Source: a bacterium (GTDB lineage: Bacteria > SM23-81 > DAOVCL01). From it: a stretch of DNA of 64,000 nucleotides. The position numbers were made by a program, and so were the translations under genes. The number at the start of each line of letters is the position of its first letter. Position 1 is the stretch's first letter. Of this stretch, positions 41,242 to 46,473 are shown piece after piece. The notes beneath the pieces were generated by a model. The model worked only from the letters and a program-made list of their open reading frames with translations. It was not told the origin of the DNA and ran no database searches. Location: the NCBI GenBank assembly GCA_029932675.1, contig JAOZPP010000004.1, positions 12,157 through 76,156 on the forward strand, written 5' to 3'.

Positions 41242-42363
41242 TTGCAGATGAGCGAATTGATGAAGGCAGATTATAAAGAACTTCTTGCAAAGGTTTCGGG
41301 TCTGCTTGAGCGGGCAAGACACGAAGCTGTAAGAAGGATTAATACGGTTATCGTAGAAACCTATTGGGAAATTGGAAGATTGATTGTAGAAGAGGAACAG
41401 AAGGGCAAAAAACGGGCCGAGTATGGTAAAAGGTTGTTACAGAAATTATCAATTGATTTGACAAAAAGATATGGACGGGGATTCTCAACCGACAATTTAG
41501 AGGCTATGAGAAAGTTTTACTTGATTTATCCTAGTTTTGGCAGGAAGATTTCCGAGACAATGTCTCGGAAATTAGGAAAGACTCAAGCTGATATCCCAGA
41601 GATTGAATTTCTGAAGAATCTTTCATGGTCTCACATTCGTGAAATTATAACACTTGAGGAACCTCTTGCAAGGTCTTTTTATGTGATAGAGACAATTAAA
41701 AATAACTGGTCAGTGAGGGAATTGAAGAGACAAAAAGGCTCCCTACTCTTTGAGAGACTTGCCCTGAGCAAAGAGAAAAAGAAGGTAATGGAGCTGGCAA
41801 AGAGAGGGCAGATTATTGAGAAGCCCGAGGATATAGTCAAAGACCCCTATGTATTGGAGTTCCTGGGTATCCCTGAGAGACATCACTATACTGAATCACA
41901 GTTGGAACAGGCTCTTATTGACCATCTTCAAGAATTTCTTTTAGAACTCGGTAAAGGCTTCACTTTTGTTGCCCGACAAAAGAGGATTACTATTGACAAC
42001 GAACATTTTTACATTGACCTGGTCTTTTACAACCGCATCGTGCGGTGTTTTGTCTTGATTGACCTCAAAGTAGGCAAGTTTACTCCGGCTGATACTGGGC
42101 AAATGAATTTTTATCTCAATTACATCAAGGCCAATGAAGTGATGGAGGATGAAAACCCTCCTGTGGGCATTCTTCTCTGCACTGAGGCTGACAGAAGCAG
42201 AGTCTTTGTAGAGTATGCCCTGGGAGGATTGGATAATAAAATTTTCGTCTCCAAATACAAATTGTATCTCCCGACGAAAAGAGAACTTGAGGCAGAAATC
42301 AAGAAAGAGACGGCTCGTTTACAACTTATTTCACCCAGGGAGATGAAAAGCAGCAAAGATTAG
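41242..42363 (+). CDS. YhcG/DUF1016-family PD-(D/E)xK nuclease-fold protein
   Basis: The N-terminal region reads INTVIVETYWEIGRLIVEEEQ.G..RAEYGK.LL..LS. The C-terminal region reads VKDPYVLEFLG..E..LE.ALIDHLQEFLLELGKGFTFVARQKRI..D...FYIDLVFYNR..RCFVLIDLKVGKF. The likely start is ATG 41248. Confidence 0.85.
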   Translation: MQMSELMKADYKELLAKVSGLLERARHEAVRRINTVIVETYWEIGRLIVEEEQKGKKRAEYGKRLLQKLSIDLTKRYGRGFSTDNLEAMRKFYLIYPSFGRKISETMSRKLGKTQADIPEIEFLKNLSWSHIREIITLEEPLARSFYVIETIKNNWSVRELKRQKGSLLFERLALSKEKKKVMELAKRGQIIEKPEDIVKDPYVLEFLGIPERHHYTESQLEQALIDHLQEFLLELGKGFTFVARQKRITIDNEHFYIDLVFYNRIVRCFVLIDLKVGKFTPADTGQMNFYLNYIKANEVMEDENPPVGILLCTEADRSRVFVEYALGGLDNKIFVSKYKLYLPTKRELEAEIKKETARLQLISPREMKSSKD

Positions 42364-42431
42364 GTTTTCTTAAATATAGGAATGATTCATCTTGAAGCTG
42401 AGGCATTTCCATTTTATAAAACACCTTAGCA

Positions 42432-43292: not shown

Positions 43293-46200
43293 CATCATCG
43301 ATAACAGCGCCGAGGGGCGCAGATTGGCCGATGTCTTGAAGGAAATTATTGTCCCCGGCACCAAAGTGTATATCGCTTCAGGCTATTTCAACCTGGAAGG
43401 TTTCAGACTCATTAGTGAGAAATTGAAGGAGACGCAAGGAGTGCGCCTTCTTCTTGGCCGGGCTTTATCCCCCCAGGATGTGCGTTCACCAAAGTTTTTC
43501 CTTGAAGAATTAAGAGAAGAGGCAGAGGCAAAGATGGGGACCCCAGAGGCCGAAGGTCTAATCCGGGAATTCCTCCGCTGGCTTGAGAACCCTGGGGTTG
43601 GGGTGAAGATCTACAACAAGGGATTTTATCACGGAAAATTCTATATCGTTGAAGGAGTTCCGGTTTTGGGAGCAGTGGCTATCTCTGGCTCTTCGAACTT
43701 CACCCAAGCTGGCCTTACCAGAAATACCGAATTCAACACCGTCTTAAAGCAGGGGAGCGCGGTAAAAGAAACAAAGCGGGTTTTTGACCGACTATGGAAT
43801 GAGAGCGAAGACTACAAACAGGACCTGAAATCGCTTTACTCCGATTTCACCGCCGCTTACAGTCCTTATGAAATATATATCAAGGCTCTCTACGCCTATT
43901 TTAGGGATAAGTTTGCTTCGGTTTCTCCAACTGATGAGGTTCCCAGCCCTATCGTTCTCACTGATTTTCAGCGCGACGGCTATTTAGCTGCCCTCGATAC
44001 CCTTGATCGCTATAGCGGTGTTCTGCTCTCCGACTCCGTGGGGTTAGGTAAAACATATCTTGCCCTGAAGCTTCTGGATGACTTTGCCTATAGGTTGAGA
44101 GAAAAGGCTCTGGTCATCTGTCCGGCGCAACTTAAGGGGATTCTTTGGGAACCCAAACTGAGAGAAGCCGGCATCAGAGCAGATATTGTCCACAGGGAGC
44201 GGGTGAGCCGGAAGGACTTCCCAATAGAAGAGTACCAAGATCACGACCTTATCGTCGTGGACGAGTCTCACAACTTTCGCAACTCCCAGACAAACTGTTG
44301 GAAAAACCTCTCCTTATGTGTGATAAGAGGTAAACCAAAGAAAGTAATACTTATCACTGCAACTCCTGTAAATAACTCCGTTTTTGACCTTTACAACCAG
44401 ATTCGCTTGATCACCAAGGACAGGGACAGTTTCTTCGCCGCGGCTGGTATCCCAAGCCTATGGGGCTATTTTCTTAGAGCAGATAAGGAGAAAGAGACTC
44501 TATACGATCTTTTAGAGGAAATAGCTGTTAGGCGCAGCCGGCCTTTTATCAAGAGGAACTATCCGGATGTAGCAATTGATGGTGAGCCGATAAGATTTCC
44601 AGAAAGGGAGCTTCACACAACCCGATACAACCTTGAGCAGACCTATCAGGGGCTTTACAAAGAATGCTCTCAAACCATCGAAAACTTGACCCTGGCAAGC
44701 TACAACATTGAGTCGTATCGGAAGGAGATCAGACAAGAGCAGCTTGAGCTTTTCGAGCATATCAACAAGGCCTTTCTTGCCAAAGGGTGGTCTGAAAAAG
44801 AGAGCAAGGACTTCTTAATGAAATTGGGTAGGAATGAGGCGGTAATTTCGATTTTGAAGGTGCTCTTTTTAAAGCGGCTTGAATCCAGCATTGAGGCCTT
44901 TAGAATCAGCATAGAAAGATTGGTTGATTTTCAGAGGAAATTTCTTCAGGTCTTTAAGGAAGGAAGAATACTGGATAGAGACGCCTATCGCAAGTTCTTC
45001 CTTCAAAGCGGTGAGGATGAATCTACAGAGGAAGGTGAGAGCATCTCCACTGTCCTAGAGAAGTTGCCACAGATAAATTTGGAAGATTTCGATGTAGAGG
45101 CAATCAAACGCTCTGTTCAGAAGGATATCGGTGCTCTTGAGCAAATTTACAAAAAGGTCGAGAGAATAAAATCGGGGAAAGATACGAAGCTGCAGATTCT
45201 CAAAGAGAAATTAAGCGGTGAACTAAAGGGAAAGAAAGTCATCATCTTTACCTATTTTAAGGATACTGCTCGTTACCTTTATCGCTGGCTAGGCGGCAAC
45301 AGGGAGTGGCTGGAAAGTGTGGTCTCGCCTGAGGAGCGAAGGGCGGTGGAAAGTTTCTTGAGCCACGCCTCTCTTTCATCCCCGAACATCTCAATCACGG
45401 ATAGTGGGATAGACCCTGATGAGCGTAAGAACAGAATCATGCGCTTCTCCCCGATAGCCAACGGTCGCCCTGAGCTAAAAGGAACAGAAAGGGAGATTCA
45501 AATCCTCATCTCAACCGATGTCCTCTCGGAAGGCCAGAATCTGCAGGATGCTGATACGGTAATAAATTATGATCTTCCCTGGAATCCTGTTCGCCTCATT
45601 CAGCGAGTGGGAAGGATCGATCGTCTCAAGTCTCCGCACCCTCTGGTGCATCTTTACAACTTCTTCCCTGAAGACGCATTGGAATCCCTCCTAGGCATTC
45701 TGGAGAGGCTTTATCAGAAACTCGATGCCATTAATCGCAGTGTAGGCTTAGATGTAAGCACCTTAGGGGAGACGCCTACGCCGAAGGATTTTGGCTTCAT
45801 TCGTGACCTTTTTGCAGGAAAAGCCGAGGTTTTAGAGGAGTTAGAAGGGATGTCCGAACTGGCCGTCGGTGAGTTCCTTAAACAAGAACTCTTGCAGTTT
45901 TTAGAAAAGGTAGGTGAAGAGAAGATAAGGAGAATACCCAATGGTGTGGGAAGTGGTCTACACAAAGAGGGACAGCATGGACTTTTCGTGGCTTTCAAAG
46001 ACAAGGAGCGCCATTATTGGTGCTATTACGACTTCAAGACTGGTAAGGTCCTTGAGAACAAACTCCAGGTCATTCGACTTATCAGATGCGAAGAGAGTGA
46101 ACCACGGATAGAGCCGGATTTTGATGTCTATGAGGTCATTGAGAAAGCGAAGAGACATATCCTCGCCCGTTTGCGCACTTCTTCCTTAAAGCCGCCCATG

Positions 46201-46473
46201 CTTAAGGCACCTCAAAACCAAATCGTAAACTGGTTACAAGGATTAGCTTCCAAAGCAACTGATCTTCTTGAATATTTTCGCGAACCTTTGCCAGAGTTAT
46301 ATCTGCGGGAGCTTCGTTCCTTATGGATTAACAGGGCCTCATCAGAGGAGGTACTCATCCTTAAGCTAAGGGAGTTCAAAGAGTCCCATCCAATTTCACC
46401 AGCAATGGAAAGAACTCCACCGCCTGAAGAGCCCAAGGTCAAAGTTGTTTGCTATCTTGCAGTTATGAGTTAG
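43279..46473 (+). CDS. fused PLD-family (HKD) nuclease domain and SNF2-family helicase
   Basis: 1064 aa. The HKD motif is [16 protein letters not shown]. Helicase motifs are GLGKT (I), [10 protein letters not shown] (II), ITATPVNNS (III) and [38 protein letters not shown] (V/VI). Confidence 0.85.
   Translation: [1064 protein letters not shown]

What the first reader, a model, noticed from the sequence alone, without database searches (positions are those of the whole stretch)
41242..46473. YhcG nuclease-fold gene, DUF2851-like gene and fused PLD-nuclease/SNF2-helicase: candidate uncharacterised helicase-nuclease defence module
43279..46473 encodes a 1064-aa protein. An N-terminal single HKD phospholipase-D/nuclease motif ([16 protein letters not shown]) is fused to a complete SNF2-type motor (GLGKT, [57 protein letters not shown]). 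Its ATG lies 14 nt inside the end of the 286-aa DUF2851-like ORF (42432..43292), so the two are very probably translationally coupled. A DUF1016/YhcG PD-(D/E)xK-fold gene (41242..42363) sits 68 nt upstream on the same strand. A Type IIG-like adenine MTase/endonuclease lies 1.1 kb further upstream. PLD nuclease, SNF2 helicase and N6-adenine MTase are the class 1 DISARM accessory parts (DrmC, DrmD, DrmMI). However, the DISARM core (DrmA helicase, DrmB/DUF1998) is absent. I also see no PglZ/BrxC (BREX), Zorya, Druantia, Hachiman or Gabija signature gene. The combination therefore does not fit any named system I can recognise.
Basis: partly seen in the sequence, partly recalled or inferred. Interest (0 to 1): 0.85.

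Follow-up and report, generated by a model that had tools for sequence, protein, structure and literature searches.

The report
Orphaned nuclease-helicase restriction pair with embedded cargo
The fused PLD-nuclease/SNF2-motor gene and the small gene coupled to it are real and conserved, and they form the cutting half of a widespread but unnamed methylase-linked restriction-like system; here, however, the usual methylase partner survives only as short scars, and the YhcG gene is one of many swappable passenger genes.

Summary
All coordinates, motifs and overlaps in the finding are correct. The interpretation needs revision.

- **The conserved pair.** The 286-aa gene is the C-terminal helical domain of DUF2851, without the N-terminal nuclease-like domain. 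It overlaps the PLD-SNF2 start by 14 or 11 nt in 24 of 26 non-redundant loci. Both genes are under purifying selection (dN/dS 0.07-0.14).
- **The usual partner.** Elsewhere the pair sits with a PglX/Eco57I-type N6-adenine methylase of 1150-1300 aa, in the cyclic order MTase, cargo, DUF, PLD-SNF2. Some PLD-SNF2 relatives at about 50% identity have the MTase but no DUF gene.
- **YhcG is cargo.** The slot after the MTase holds co-oriented passenger genes: Gabija, SIR2-pAgo, toxin-antitoxin pairs, RAYT transposases, YhcG and AlbA_2. Multi-cassette arrays are punctuated by repeated copies of the MTase 3' end.
- **This window.** The partner MTase is absent. Three scars of 77-137 nt and two of about 30 nt remain.
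- **The upstream MTase.** The gene at 36687-40169 belongs to a different, self-contained Type IIG family that always follows a small UPF0758_N gene.
- **Named systems.** DISARM, BREX and Hma/BR core genes are absent.

Verdict: a new variant of a known kind, an ATP-dependent RM-like system with embedded defences, seen here as an orphaned restriction half.

The parts
42432..43292 (+). Short DUF2851-like gene (286 aa). It is the C-terminal all-helical domain of DUF2851 and is an accessory subunit translationally coupled to PLD-SNF2.
   Evidence: Pfam DUF2851 5.4e-20, profile positions 136-369 only. The family is 240-290 aa. Full-length DUF2851 proteins match it only with their C-terminal part. 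AF2 model pLDDT 92, all-alpha, no PDB fold match. Overlap with PLD-SNF2 is conserved. dN/dS 0.10-0.14. pI 9.4.
43279..46473 (+). PLD(HKD)-nuclease / SNF2-translocase fusion (1064 aa), the predicted restriction effector.
   Evidence: Pfam and PADLOC hits (best PADLOC model C3a139 'HKD+Snf2', 1.5e-88). Catalytic residues are invariant. AF2 model pLDDT 81 aligns best to RapA and other SNF2 motors, and among restriction enzymes to SauUSI. dN/dS 0.07-0.08.
41242..42363 (+). YhcG/DUF1016 PD-(D/E)xK gene. It is an embedded cargo cassette (PADLOC candidate PDC-S02), not a core part of the module.
   Evidence: Pfam and PADLOC. The position is filled by other genes in relatives. YhcG/DUF1016_N recurs as cargo or as fragments in L164 and L168.
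41086..41221 (+). Scar of the 3' end of a partner-type MTase gene, with the stop codon kept at 41221-41223. It lies directly before the YhcG cassette.
   Evidence: nhmmer with a profile of MTase 3' ends. tblastn gives 82-84% identity to the last 45-47 aa of the L168 and L117 MTases. Repeat family D2.
40293..41103 (+). First copy of an 811-nt perfect direct repeat. It carries a roughly 30-nt MTase-end scar (40331-40363), a PIN-like DUF3368 gene (40356-40877, PDC-S70) and a UPF0175-like gene (40865-41092). This is an embedded toxin-antitoxin-like cassette.
   Evidence: The same cassette lies between the MTase and the DUF gene in L103 and L109.
46521..47331 (+). Second copy of the 811-nt repeat, 47 nt after the PLD-SNF2 stop codon.
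47314..47450 (+). Second MTase 3'-end scar, directly before the AlbA_2 cassette.
   Evidence: 85-91% identity to the last 45-47 aa of partner MTases.
47470..49158 (+). Schlafen AlbA_2 / HATPase_c_4 gene (562 aa), a cargo cassette. In the closest relatives a gene of this type lies directly upstream of the DUF gene.
   Evidence: Pfam. Gene tables of L168 and L169. L170 matches window 49071-49332.
49198..49332 (+). Truncated second copy of the 5' end of the DUF2851-like gene, 92.6% identical to 42405-42537. It is a pseudogene remnant.
49489..49565 (+). Third MTase 3'-end scar. It is followed by the 3' remnant of an AlbA_2-type gene (49594-49861).
36356..40169 (+). Separate two-gene module: a small UPF0758_N gene (36356-36745) overlapping a 1160-aa Type IIG-like nuclease-methylase (36687-40169). 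It is not the partner of the PLD-SNF2 pair.
   Evidence: Identity matrix. Homologues cover 96-100% of the 1160 aa, nearly all 99-100%. The same gene pair occurs without PLD-SNF2 in L175-L177. D66, E83, K85 and NPPY are invariant. GC is 37.6%, against 45-47% for DUF/PLD-SNF2.

Best explanation
Genes 42432-43292 and 43279-46473 are the restriction half of a widespread, unnamed, ATP-dependent RM-like system.

**The system elsewhere.** Its core is a PglX/Eco57I-type N6-adenine methylase plus a PLD-SNF2 protein. One group of lineages adds the short DUF2851 C-domain protein as a third subunit.

**Inferred mechanism of the complete system.**
- The methylase marks the host DNA and supplies site recognition.
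- At unmarked sites the SNF2 motor translocates double-stranded DNA, using ATP.
- Each chain has only one HKD motif, so two PLD domains must pair to build one active site. Cutting therefore needs a dimer or two converging enzymes.
- The basic, all-helical DUF2851 C-domain protein is made in step with PLD-SNF2. It most likely acts as its stoichiometric partner, either as an adaptor to the methylase or DNA, or as a gate on the nuclease.

**The cargo slot.** The stretch after the methylase stop codon is a slot for co-oriented passenger genes. The slot turns over by homologous recombination at the very conserved last 135-145 nt of the methylase gene. On the other side, the DUF 5' end may serve as the second crossover site, although only this window shows evidence for that. 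This turnover leaves repeated methylase-end scars.

**This window.** YhcG, the PIN/UPF0175 pair and AlbA_2 are such passengers. The partner methylase body has been lost. The neighbouring Type IIG enzyme is an independent system. The DUF/PLD-SNF2 pair is therefore intact but probably orphaned. Without a partner methylase elsewhere in the genome it is likely inert as a restriction enzyme.

**Shown:** the gene content, the conservation, the coupling, the cargo and the scars. **Inferred:** the biochemical roles and the orphan status.
For: **Trio and gene order**
- Relatives show MTase-[cargo]-DUF-PLDSNF2 (L001, L002, L100-L117, L168), DUF-PLDSNF2-MTase (L122-124, L174) or PLDSNF2-MTase-[cargo]-DUF (L128, L130, L135, L143, L147, L155, L157, L164, L166).
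- All 7 DUF-centred loci with at least 9 kb upstream and 3.3 kb downstream hold both other genes.
- The DUF/PLD-SNF2 overlap is 14 nt in 19 and 11 nt in 5 of 26 non-redundant loci.
- The MTase + PLD-SNF2 pair also occurs without the DUF gene in L171-L173, in 48 of 79 distant GTDB loci, and on plasmids of Deinococcus radiophilus and Microcystis aeruginosa.

**Cargo**
- 70 of 79 slot ORFs are co-oriented with the system.
- They include Gabija in 3 loci, SIR2 with pAgo, Y1_Tnp 7 times, DUF3800 5 times, toxin-antitoxin modules and YhcG.

**Scars**
- nhmmer finds 2-5 co-oriented MTase 3'-end copies per locus in about 20 loci. Their right end is usually at or within a few nt of the stop codon and their left end varies.
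- In the loci whose gene tables I checked, most scars are followed within 70 nt or less by a cargo gene start.

**Window MTase is foreign to the pair:**

**Catalytic and structural evidence**
- Single HKD motif and invariant catalytic residues.
- Structural neighbours are RapA, other SNF2 motors and SauUSI.
- Purifying selection on both genes.

**Literature**
- A PLD+SNF CDS next to a Type II RM CDS was noted in PMC9881135.
- Embedding of defences inside Hma, BREX, DISARM and Type I RM is described in bioRxiv 10.1101/2024.01.29.577857.
Against: - No experiment exists on any member of this family. Restriction, methylation dependence and the role of the DUF protein are all inferred.
- The DUF gene is patchy relative to the PLD-SNF2 tree. 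It is absent from some relatives at about 50% identity and present with some at roughly 30% identity. It could therefore be a very common resident of the array rather than a subunit.
- An intact, selected restriction half without its methylase is odd. A partner MTase may lie outside the 64-kb window, or the Type IIG enzyme may substitute for it.
- The 811-nt perfect repeat could be an assembly artefact that joined two strain variants.
Confidence: 0.6

Rival explanations
1. YhcG + DUF2851-like + PLD-SNF2 form one self-contained three-gene helicase-nuclease defence module, possibly working with the upstream Type IIG MTase in the manner of a DISARM-like accessory set.
For: The three genes are co-oriented and closely spaced (68 nt and -14 nt). 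YhcG is a PADLOC defence candidate, PDC-S02.
Against: YhcG is replaced by unrelated genes at the same position in the closest relatives. It is preceded by an MTase-end scar, like other cassettes. YhcG fragments are scattered in other arrays. DrmA, DrmB and DUF1998 are absent.
Confidence: 0.08
2. A working hybrid. The Type IIG enzyme at 36687-40169 has taken over as the modification partner, and its methylation protects the host from DUF/PLD-SNF2.
For: It lies where the partner MTase would be, in the same orientation. It keeps the conserved C-terminal motif (aa 958-1003) that all partner MTases share. The pair is intact and under purifying selection.
Against: It is only 26-33% identical to partner MTases, has a different N-terminal half with its own nuclease motif, and has a 157-aa C-terminal extension. 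Its family occurs without PLD-SNF2 in all three contexts examined. Its GC content differs by 8-9 points. It shares that C-terminal motif with the partner MTases because both families carry it, so the motif is not evidence of co-option.
Confidence: 0.12
3. The PLD-SNF2 protein, with the DUF protein, acts on its own as a methylation-independent or modification-dependent (Type IV, SauUSI-like) ATP-dependent nuclease, so it needs no partner MTase.
For: The whole-chain model aligns to SauUSI, which has a PLD nuclease, an SF2 helicase and a C-terminal recognition domain. The pair persists here without the partner MTase. The C-terminal 250 aa have no assigned function.
Against: A large N6-adenine MTase is adjacent and co-oriented in nearly all complete loci of the family, across bacteria and archaea. 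This is not expected for a Type IV enzyme.
Confidence: 0.12
4. The DUF2851-like gene is not a subunit. It is another, very frequent resident of the cassette array downstream of the MTase.
For: It is absent from L171-L173 and from 80 distant loci. In PLDSNF2-MTase-cargo-DUF loci it lies at or near the end of the array. In L143 and L144 two copies are separated by an MTase scar.
Against: It is found only in these MTase/PLD-SNF2 loci. It is absent from viral contigs and never appears in another context among 80 loci. The 11-14 nt overlap with PLD-SNF2 is conserved across lineages whose PLD-SNF2 proteins are only 56-100% identical. It keeps the same cyclic order in all three arrangements.
Confidence: 0.15

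Closest known systems
Type-2 BREX-related (BR) / Hma systems (Rakesh & Krishnan 2026, PMC12839542; Payne et al.)
   Same: The effector is an N-terminal HKD endonuclease fused to a Swi2/Snf2 motor. It is paired with an N6-adenine MTase and has a small accessory protein of unknown fold (DUF3780 there). These systems frequently host embedded defence genes.
   Different: The defining DUF499 AAA+ ATPase and DUF3780 are absent from the window and from the relatives' gene tables. The PADLOC HmaA model matches only residues 737-823 (1.3e-24). The MTase here is PglX/Eco57I-type. The accessory protein is a DUF2851 C-domain.
Class 1 DISARM (DrmD SNF2, DrmC PLD, DrmMI N6A MTase, DrmA, DrmB)
   Same: The same three enzymatic activities (SNF2 motor, PLD nuclease, Eco57I-type adenine MTase) occur in one locus.
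   Different: There is no DrmA (YprA helicase) or DrmB (DUF1998), which define DISARM. PLD and SNF2 are fused here. DrmD models match only part of the motor.
SauUSI (PDB 7clg), an ATP-dependent Type IV restriction enzyme
   Same: A single polypeptide with an N-terminal single-HKD PLD nuclease, an SF2 motor and a C-terminal domain. The fold-level match extends along the chain. Dimerisation of PLD domains to form one active site is the likely shared logic (my knowledge of PLD nucleases such as Nuc and BfiI).
   Different: SauUSI targets modified cytosines and has no partner MTase. This family is almost always next to an N6-adenine MTase. The motor here is clearly Swi2/Snf2 (RapA-like).
CglI / NgoAVII ATP-dependent Type II systems, and Type III / Type ISP RM
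   Same: A PLD or other nuclease works with an SF2 ATPase and a separate MTase, and cleavage needs ATP-driven DNA tracking (my knowledge). There is a weak Pfam RE_NgoFVII match to the PLD domain.
   Different: In CglI and NgoAVII the nuclease and ATPase are separate proteins and the MTase is a C5 enzyme. Type III Res is not an SNF2 motor and has a PD-ExK nuclease.
Embedded defence genes in Hma, BREX, DISARM and Type I RM ('guilt by embedding', Payne et al. 2024, bioRxiv 10.1101/2024.01.29.577857)
   Same: Co-oriented defence genes are nested between the genes of a host system. The window's cargo genes match that work's candidate families PDC-S02 and PDC-S70.
   Different: The host system here is not one of the four surveyed. 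The repeated copies of the host MTase 3' end that delimit cassettes are not mentioned in the sections of that paper that I read.

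Membership tests
Class 1 DISARM | DrmA (YprA-type helicase) and DrmB (DUF1998) core genes | tested here: not met
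   There is no such ORF. All 20 ORFs of at least 400 aa in the window were listed. Ten of them were scanned and are housekeeping, and four more lie in the island region. The six not scanned are 413-504 aa (at 690-5104, 30619-31860 and 51700-54482). By my knowledge DrmA is far larger, but DrmB could be that size, so its absence rests on the island gene content. The PADLOC DrmA hit to PLD-SNF2 is a partial helicase match (3e-16).
Class 1 DISARM | DrmD SNF2, DrmC PLD, DrmMI adenine MTase | tested here: inconclusive
   SNF2 and PLD are present but fused. DrmD models cover only 737-850 or 518-823. The adjacent MTase is a self-contained Type IIG enzyme of another family.
BREX (any type) | PglZ and BrxC/PglY | tested here: not met
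   Neither is present among the window ORFs scanned. BrxHI/II models match only 738-830 of the motor.
Hma / Type-2 BR system | DUF499 AAA+ ATPase (HmaC) and, for Type-2 BR, DUF3780 | tested here: not met
   They are absent from the window and from the gene tables of relatives L001, L002, L164, L166, L168 and L171-L174.
Hma / Type-2 BR system | HKD endonuclease fused N-terminally to a Swi2/Snf2 helicase | tested here: met
   PLDc_2 at 28-173, then the SNF2 motor. RapA is the top structural match.
Unnamed MTase + PLD-SNF2 (± DUF2851C) RM-like system | Adjacent, co-oriented partner PglX/Eco57I-type MTase of 1150-1300 aa ending ...LVKxRLxKAxS | tested here: not met
   Only 3'-end scars remain (41086-41221, 47314-47450, 49489-49565). 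tblastn with three partner MTases finds nothing else apart from the C-terminal half of the Type IIG gene at 33-35% identity.
Unnamed MTase + PLD-SNF2 (± DUF2851C) RM-like system | Short DUF2851 C-domain gene overlapping the PLD-SNF2 start | tested here: met
   The overlap is 14 nt, the same as in 19 of 26 non-redundant loci.
Pfam DUF2851 (PF11013) | Match above the gathering score, over the full-length profile | tested here: inconclusive
   The score is 72.2 bits against a cut-off of 25, but only profile positions 136-369 of 375 are matched. The N-terminal roughly 150-aa domain of full-length members (motif GPDF...GD[IV]E[IL]H) is missing in the whole short family.
YhcG / DUF1016 (PADLOC PDC-S02) | DUF1016_N plus the YhcG_C PD-(D/E)xK domain, full length | tested here: met
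   Both domains are matched end to end. PDC-S02 4.2e-144. The motif IDLVF...LIDLK is present in the translation.
Type IIG restriction-modification enzyme (for 36687-40169) | One chain with a PD-(D/E)xK nuclease motif and a gamma-type N6A MTase (NPPY) | tested here: met
   D66, E83, K85 and N502-P503-P504-Y505 are invariant in 13 family members. PADLOC REase_MTase_IIG 1.1e-41. Activity was not tested.
SauUSI-like Type IV restriction | Modification-dependent target recognition domain, and no partner MTase | not testable with these tools
   The architecture and fold resemble SauUSI, but the C-terminal domain has no assignable function. The family-wide MTase linkage argues against membership.

The most novel reading that the evidence does not exclude
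An unnamed two- or three-gene restriction-like system (PglX-type MTase + PLD-SNF2, with or without a DUF2851 C-domain subunit of a fold not seen in the PDB) doubles as a recombinase-free cassette platform. The ultra-conserved last roughly 140 nt of the MTase gene would serve as a universal homology arm, letting defence genes (Gabija, SIR2-pAgo, toxin-antitoxin pairs, YhcG, AlbA_2 and others) be captured, stacked and swapped between distant lineages. Each event would leave an MTase-end scar, much as attC sites delimit integron cassettes.
Probability: 0.4. Interest if true: 0.75.

Novelty: new variant of a known kind. Interest (0 to 1): 0.55.

Why it matters
- **An unnamed system.** The family is large. 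PLD-SNF2 has more than 3600 homologues with E ≤ 1e-10, in bacteria and archaea. Current annotation calls it only 'helicase-related protein', and it fits none of the named systems (DISARM, BREX, Hma/BR) tested here. Naming and testing it would fill a gap between DISARM, BREX type 3, Hma/BR and ARMADA, which all reuse an SNF2 motor with a PglX-like MTase.
- **A candidate third subunit.** The DUF2851 C-domain protein has a confident model but no structural relative in the PDB.
- **A possible mechanism for embedding.** The scar-delimited arrays offer a concrete, testable route by which defence genes become embedded inside other defence systems. The authors who described embedding left this question open.
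- **Caution for this locus.** A PADLOC-style or manual reading would link the pair to the wrong MTase and count YhcG as a component.

Tried and rejected
- **Foldseek of the DUF model against the PDB.** No match better than E = 0.25; the rhodopsin hits have TM-scores of 0.1-0.2. No fold assignment follows.
- **Literature on DUF2851 and DUF4391.** Only unrelated papers turned up.
- **DUF profile against IMG/VR viral contigs.** No relatives.
- **The 205-aa gene before PLD-SNF2 in L172.** hhalign against the DUF alignment shows no similarity, so it is not a diverged DUF.
- **DUF profile against 80 GTDB loci of distant PLD-SNF2 relatives.** No hits.
- **'Truncated radC' reading of 36356-36745.** Rejected, because the same short gene precedes the same MTase family elsewhere.
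- **C-terminal extension of the window MTase as a read-through fusion.** Rejected, because homologues cover 96-100% of the 1160 aa, nearly all 99-100%.
- **Promoter and terminator scans.** Not above shuffled expectation in a useful way.
- **Self-BLAST for scars in single-cassette loci (L171, L173, L166, L178, L179).** None found, as expected if scars arise only when cassettes stack.
- **One paper lookup failed** on a term format.

Full report
**1.

The 14-nt overlap, the 68-nt gap and the MTase 1.07 kb upstream are also correct.

Profile searches confirm the domain calls:
- YhcG_C and DUF1016_N for the first gene.
- DUF2851 for the second, matching only profile positions 136-369 of 375.
- PLDc_2, SNF2-rel_dom and Helicase_C for the third.
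- Eco57I and N6_Mtase for the upstream MTase.

PADLOC's best model for the 1064-aa protein is 'HKD+Snf2' (C3a139, 1.5e-88). The DrmD, HmaA, BrxH and DpdE models match only parts of the motor.

The protein has one HxK motif, H118-G-K120. H118, K120, N140, the Walker A motif and the DESH box are invariant in 17 homologues.

Both proteins are full length relative to large families. Both are under purifying selection, with dN/dS of 0.07-0.14 against relatives that are 82-88% identical. They are real genes.

**2. The setting.**

The genes lie in a low-GC island of about 36.3-49.9 kb. The island has 37-47% GC and its flanks have 52-56%. It sits between an FAD-oxidase gene and asnA. Every other large ORF scanned in the window is housekeeping: ligase, tRNA synthetases, RNase Y, DXS and urocanase. 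No DrmA/DrmB, PglZ/BrxC or DUF499 gene was found.

**3. What the pair belongs to.**

I looked at the neighbourhoods of PLD-SNF2 homologues at 47-88% identity. I also looked at 80 metagenomic loci retrieved with the DUF profile.

They show a recurrent set of genes: a PglX/Eco57I/MmeI-type MTase of 1150-1300 aa, the short DUF2851-like gene, and PLD-SNF2. The genes are always co-oriented and always in the same cyclic order. Three arrangements occur:
- MTase-[cargo]-DUF-PLDSNF2
- DUF-PLDSNF2-MTase
- PLDSNF2-MTase-[cargo]-DUF

All seven DUF loci with long flanks on both sides contain all three genes.

Where the DUF gene precedes PLD-SNF2, the two ORFs overlap by 14 nt in 19 loci, by 11 nt in 5, and by 4 or 23 nt in one each, out of 26 non-redundant loci. 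A purine-rich stretch lies before the ATG.

The DUF gene is not universal:
- L171 (53% identity to the window's PLD-SNF2), L173 (50%) and L172 (47%) have the MTase and PLD-SNF2 but no DUF gene.
- None of the 80 distant GTDB loci has one.
- In that distant set, 48 of 79 loci still have an adjacent, co-oriented Eco57I-type MTase.
- Another 12 of those loci carry DUF4391 directly downstream of PLD-SNF2. N6_N4-type MTase and ResIII-endonuclease gene clusters also occur in that distant set, in 11 and 8 loci.

The same MTase-[genes]-PLD-SNF2 layout is present on plasmids of cultured Deinococcus radiophilus and Microcystis aeruginosa. There the effector is annotated only as 'helicase-related protein'.

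The core is therefore MTase + PLD-SNF2. The DUF protein is an accessory in some lineages.

**4. The DUF2851-like protein.**

An exhaustive profile search finds the short family first. After that it finds full-length DUF2851 proteins of 386-530 aa, which match only with residues from about 150 onwards.

Their extra N-terminal domain carries a GPDF...GD[IV]E[IL]H motif that looks like a restriction-endonuclease-fold signature. That reading is my own and was not tested. The short family lacks this domain.

The AlphaFold2 model is confident (pLDDT 92) and entirely helical. It has no meaningful PDB neighbour; the best E-value is 0.25. The protein is basic, with pI 9.4, and is not hydrophobic. The family is absent from IMG/VR viral contigs and was found only in these MTase/PLD-SNF2 loci.

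**5. YhcG is cargo.**

The stretch between the MTase stop codon and the next core gene is almost never empty. Only 2 of 37 slots are empty.

I collected 79 slot ORFs from the occupied slots. Seventy are co-oriented with the system. Pfam and PADLOC scans of those 70 give:
- Y1_Tnp (RAYT) in 7.
- DUF2283/DUF4258, DUF433, HicAB and PIN(DUF3368)/UPF0175 toxin-antitoxin modules.
- DUF3800 in 5.
- HTH_3-Peptidase_M78 in 3-4.
- Gabija GajA+GajB in 3 loci.
- SIR2 with a short pAgo.
- AlbA_2.
- YhcG/DUF1016_N in 3.

In the window's closest relatives, the gene directly before the DUF gene is AlbA_2 (L168, L169, L170) or HTH_3-Peptidase_M78 (L001), not YhcG.

This is the 'embedding' phenomenon described for Hma, BREX, DISARM and Type I RM (bioRxiv 10.1101/2024.01.29.577857). 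The window's cargo genes match PADLOC's phage-defence candidate (PDC) models PDC-S02 and PDC-S70.

**6. Scars.**

The last roughly 45 codons of these MTases (…LPDRRELDxIVFxALGLTEEEQLEVYRAVxELVKNRLxKARSV*) are extremely conserved. This holds even between MTases that are under 30% identical overall.

An nhmmer profile of the last 150 nt gives the following:
- It finds 2-5 co-oriented copies per locus in about 20 loci.
- L168 has five copies, L088/L164 has four, and the window has four including the Type IIG gene's own motif.
- The copies usually end at or within a few nt of the former stop codon and begin at variable points.
- In the loci whose gene tables I checked, most are followed within 70 nt or less by a cargo gene start.
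- Single-cassette loci have no extra copies.

The simplest reading is an inference. Cassettes are gained and stacked by homologous recombination that uses the MTase 3' end as an anchor. The 5' end of the DUF gene may serve as the other anchor, but the only evidence for that is the window's own duplicated fragment at 49198-49332.

**7. The window itself is a rearranged, MTase-less copy.**

*The upstream MTase is foreign to the pair.*
- The MTase at 36687-40169 is 26-33% identical to the partner MTases. Those are 44-81% identical to each other, apart from one outlier, L130.
- It belongs to a separate, well-conserved family of about 1150 aa. D66, E83, K85 and NPPY are invariant in that family.
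- In the three other contexts examined, it is always preceded by an overlapping small UPF0758_N gene and is not accompanied by PLD-SNF2.
- Its GC content is 37.6%, against 45-47% for the DUF/PLD-SNF2 genes.

*Only scars of the partner MTase remain.*
- tblastn with three partner MTases finds only three scars, at 41086-41221, 47314-47450 and 49489-49565.
- Two further remnants of about 30 nt lie before the PIN genes.

*The island carries other recombination debris.*
- An 811-nt perfect repeat (40293-41103 = 46521-47331) carries the PIN/UPF0175 cassette. Identity collapses exactly inside the following scar.
- The second copy is followed by AlbA_2, a 135-nt DUF 5' fragment, another scar and the 3' remnant of an AlbA_2-type gene.

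This looks like repeated recombination between alleles carrying different cargo. Mis-joining of strain variants during assembly cannot be excluded.

**8. Mechanism.**

*Established knowledge.* SNF2 proteins are double-stranded-DNA translocases. Single-HKD PLD nucleases such as Nuc and BfiI form their active site across a dimer.

*Structure.* The whole-chain model (pLDDT 81) aligns best to RapA and other SNF2 remodellers. Among restriction enzymes it aligns to SauUSI.

*My inference for the complete system.*
- The MTase marks host DNA and recognises the site.
- PLD-SNF2 translocates from unmodified sites and cuts when two PLD domains pair.
- The DUF protein is a stoichiometric partner, acting as an adaptor or a gate.

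In this window, with no partner MTase, the pair is most likely an orphaned and inert restriction half. The exceptions would be a partner encoded elsewhere in the genome or substitution by the Type IIG enzyme.

**9. Comparison with known systems and novelty.**

The system shares parts with Class 1 DISARM, BREX type 3, ARMADA and especially Type-2 BR/Hma, but it lacks the defining core of each: DrmA/DrmB, PglZ/BrxC, YprA, or DUF499/DUF3780.

A PLD+SNF CDS next to a Cj0031-like Type II RM CDS was noted in passing in PMC9881135. I found no named system or experiment for it.

I rate it a new variant of a known kind. Two elements appear undescribed: the DUF2851 C-domain partner and the scar-delimited cassette arrays.

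Noticed in passing
window 36356-40169: The 129-aa UPF0758_N-only ORF is not a broken radC. The same small gene overlaps the start of the same roughly 1150-aa Type IIG-like nuclease-methylase family in three unrelated contigs (L175, L176, L177). It is a conserved two-gene module, and the role of the RadC-N-like protein is unknown.
   Followed up: partly
window 40293-41103 and 46521-47331: An 811-nt perfect direct repeat carries a PIN-like DUF3368 gene (PADLOC PDC-S70) and a UPF0175-like gene. Identity drops abruptly inside the following MTase-end scar. It is either a very recent recombination or an assembly join of two strain variants.
   Followed up: partly
window 49198-49861: The right end of the island is a run of gene remnants: a DUF2851-like 5' fragment, an MTase 3' scar, and the wHTH 3' end of an AlbA_2-type gene that matches L168 9793-10017 at 79%.
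   Followed up: partly
L053 13219-13977 and 11 other GTDB loci: In distant PLD-SNF2 loci a DUF4391 gene lies directly downstream of PLD-SNF2 (12 loci). N6_N4-type MTase (11 loci) and ResIII+RE_endonuc (8 loci) genes also occur in this set. This may be another unnamed arrangement built on the same effector.
   Followed up: no
L166/L167 7052-9952 (WOR-3 MAGs); L164 5274-9047: Complete known defence systems sit inside the MTase-to-DUF slot. L166 and L167 carry a short pAgo (Piwi) plus SIR2. L164, L094 and L096 carry Gabija-like OLD-TOPRIM plus UvrD.
   Followed up: partly
L178 (Deinococcus radiophilus pRadio5) and L179 (Microcystis aeruginosa NIES-2481 p1): These cultured strains carry N-6 methylase-[embedded genes]-PLD-SNF2 loci. 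The embedded genes are a DUF262/GmrSD-like gene in the first and a nucleotidyltransferase plus SLATT in the second. They are usable for experiments.
   Followed up: partly
L127, L128, L130, L134, L135, L137, L173 slots: REP-associated tyrosine transposase-like (Y1_Tnp) genes are the most frequent single occupant of the slot after the MTase (7 of 70 ORFs). Whether they help to move cassettes is unknown.
   Followed up: no
window 39547-39691 and all MTase 3' ends: The last roughly 45 codons of Eco57I_C-type MTases are conserved enough for a DNA-level profile to detect them between families that are under 30% identical in protein. The reason for this constraint is unexplained. It may be an interaction helix or a recombination target.
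   Followed up: partly
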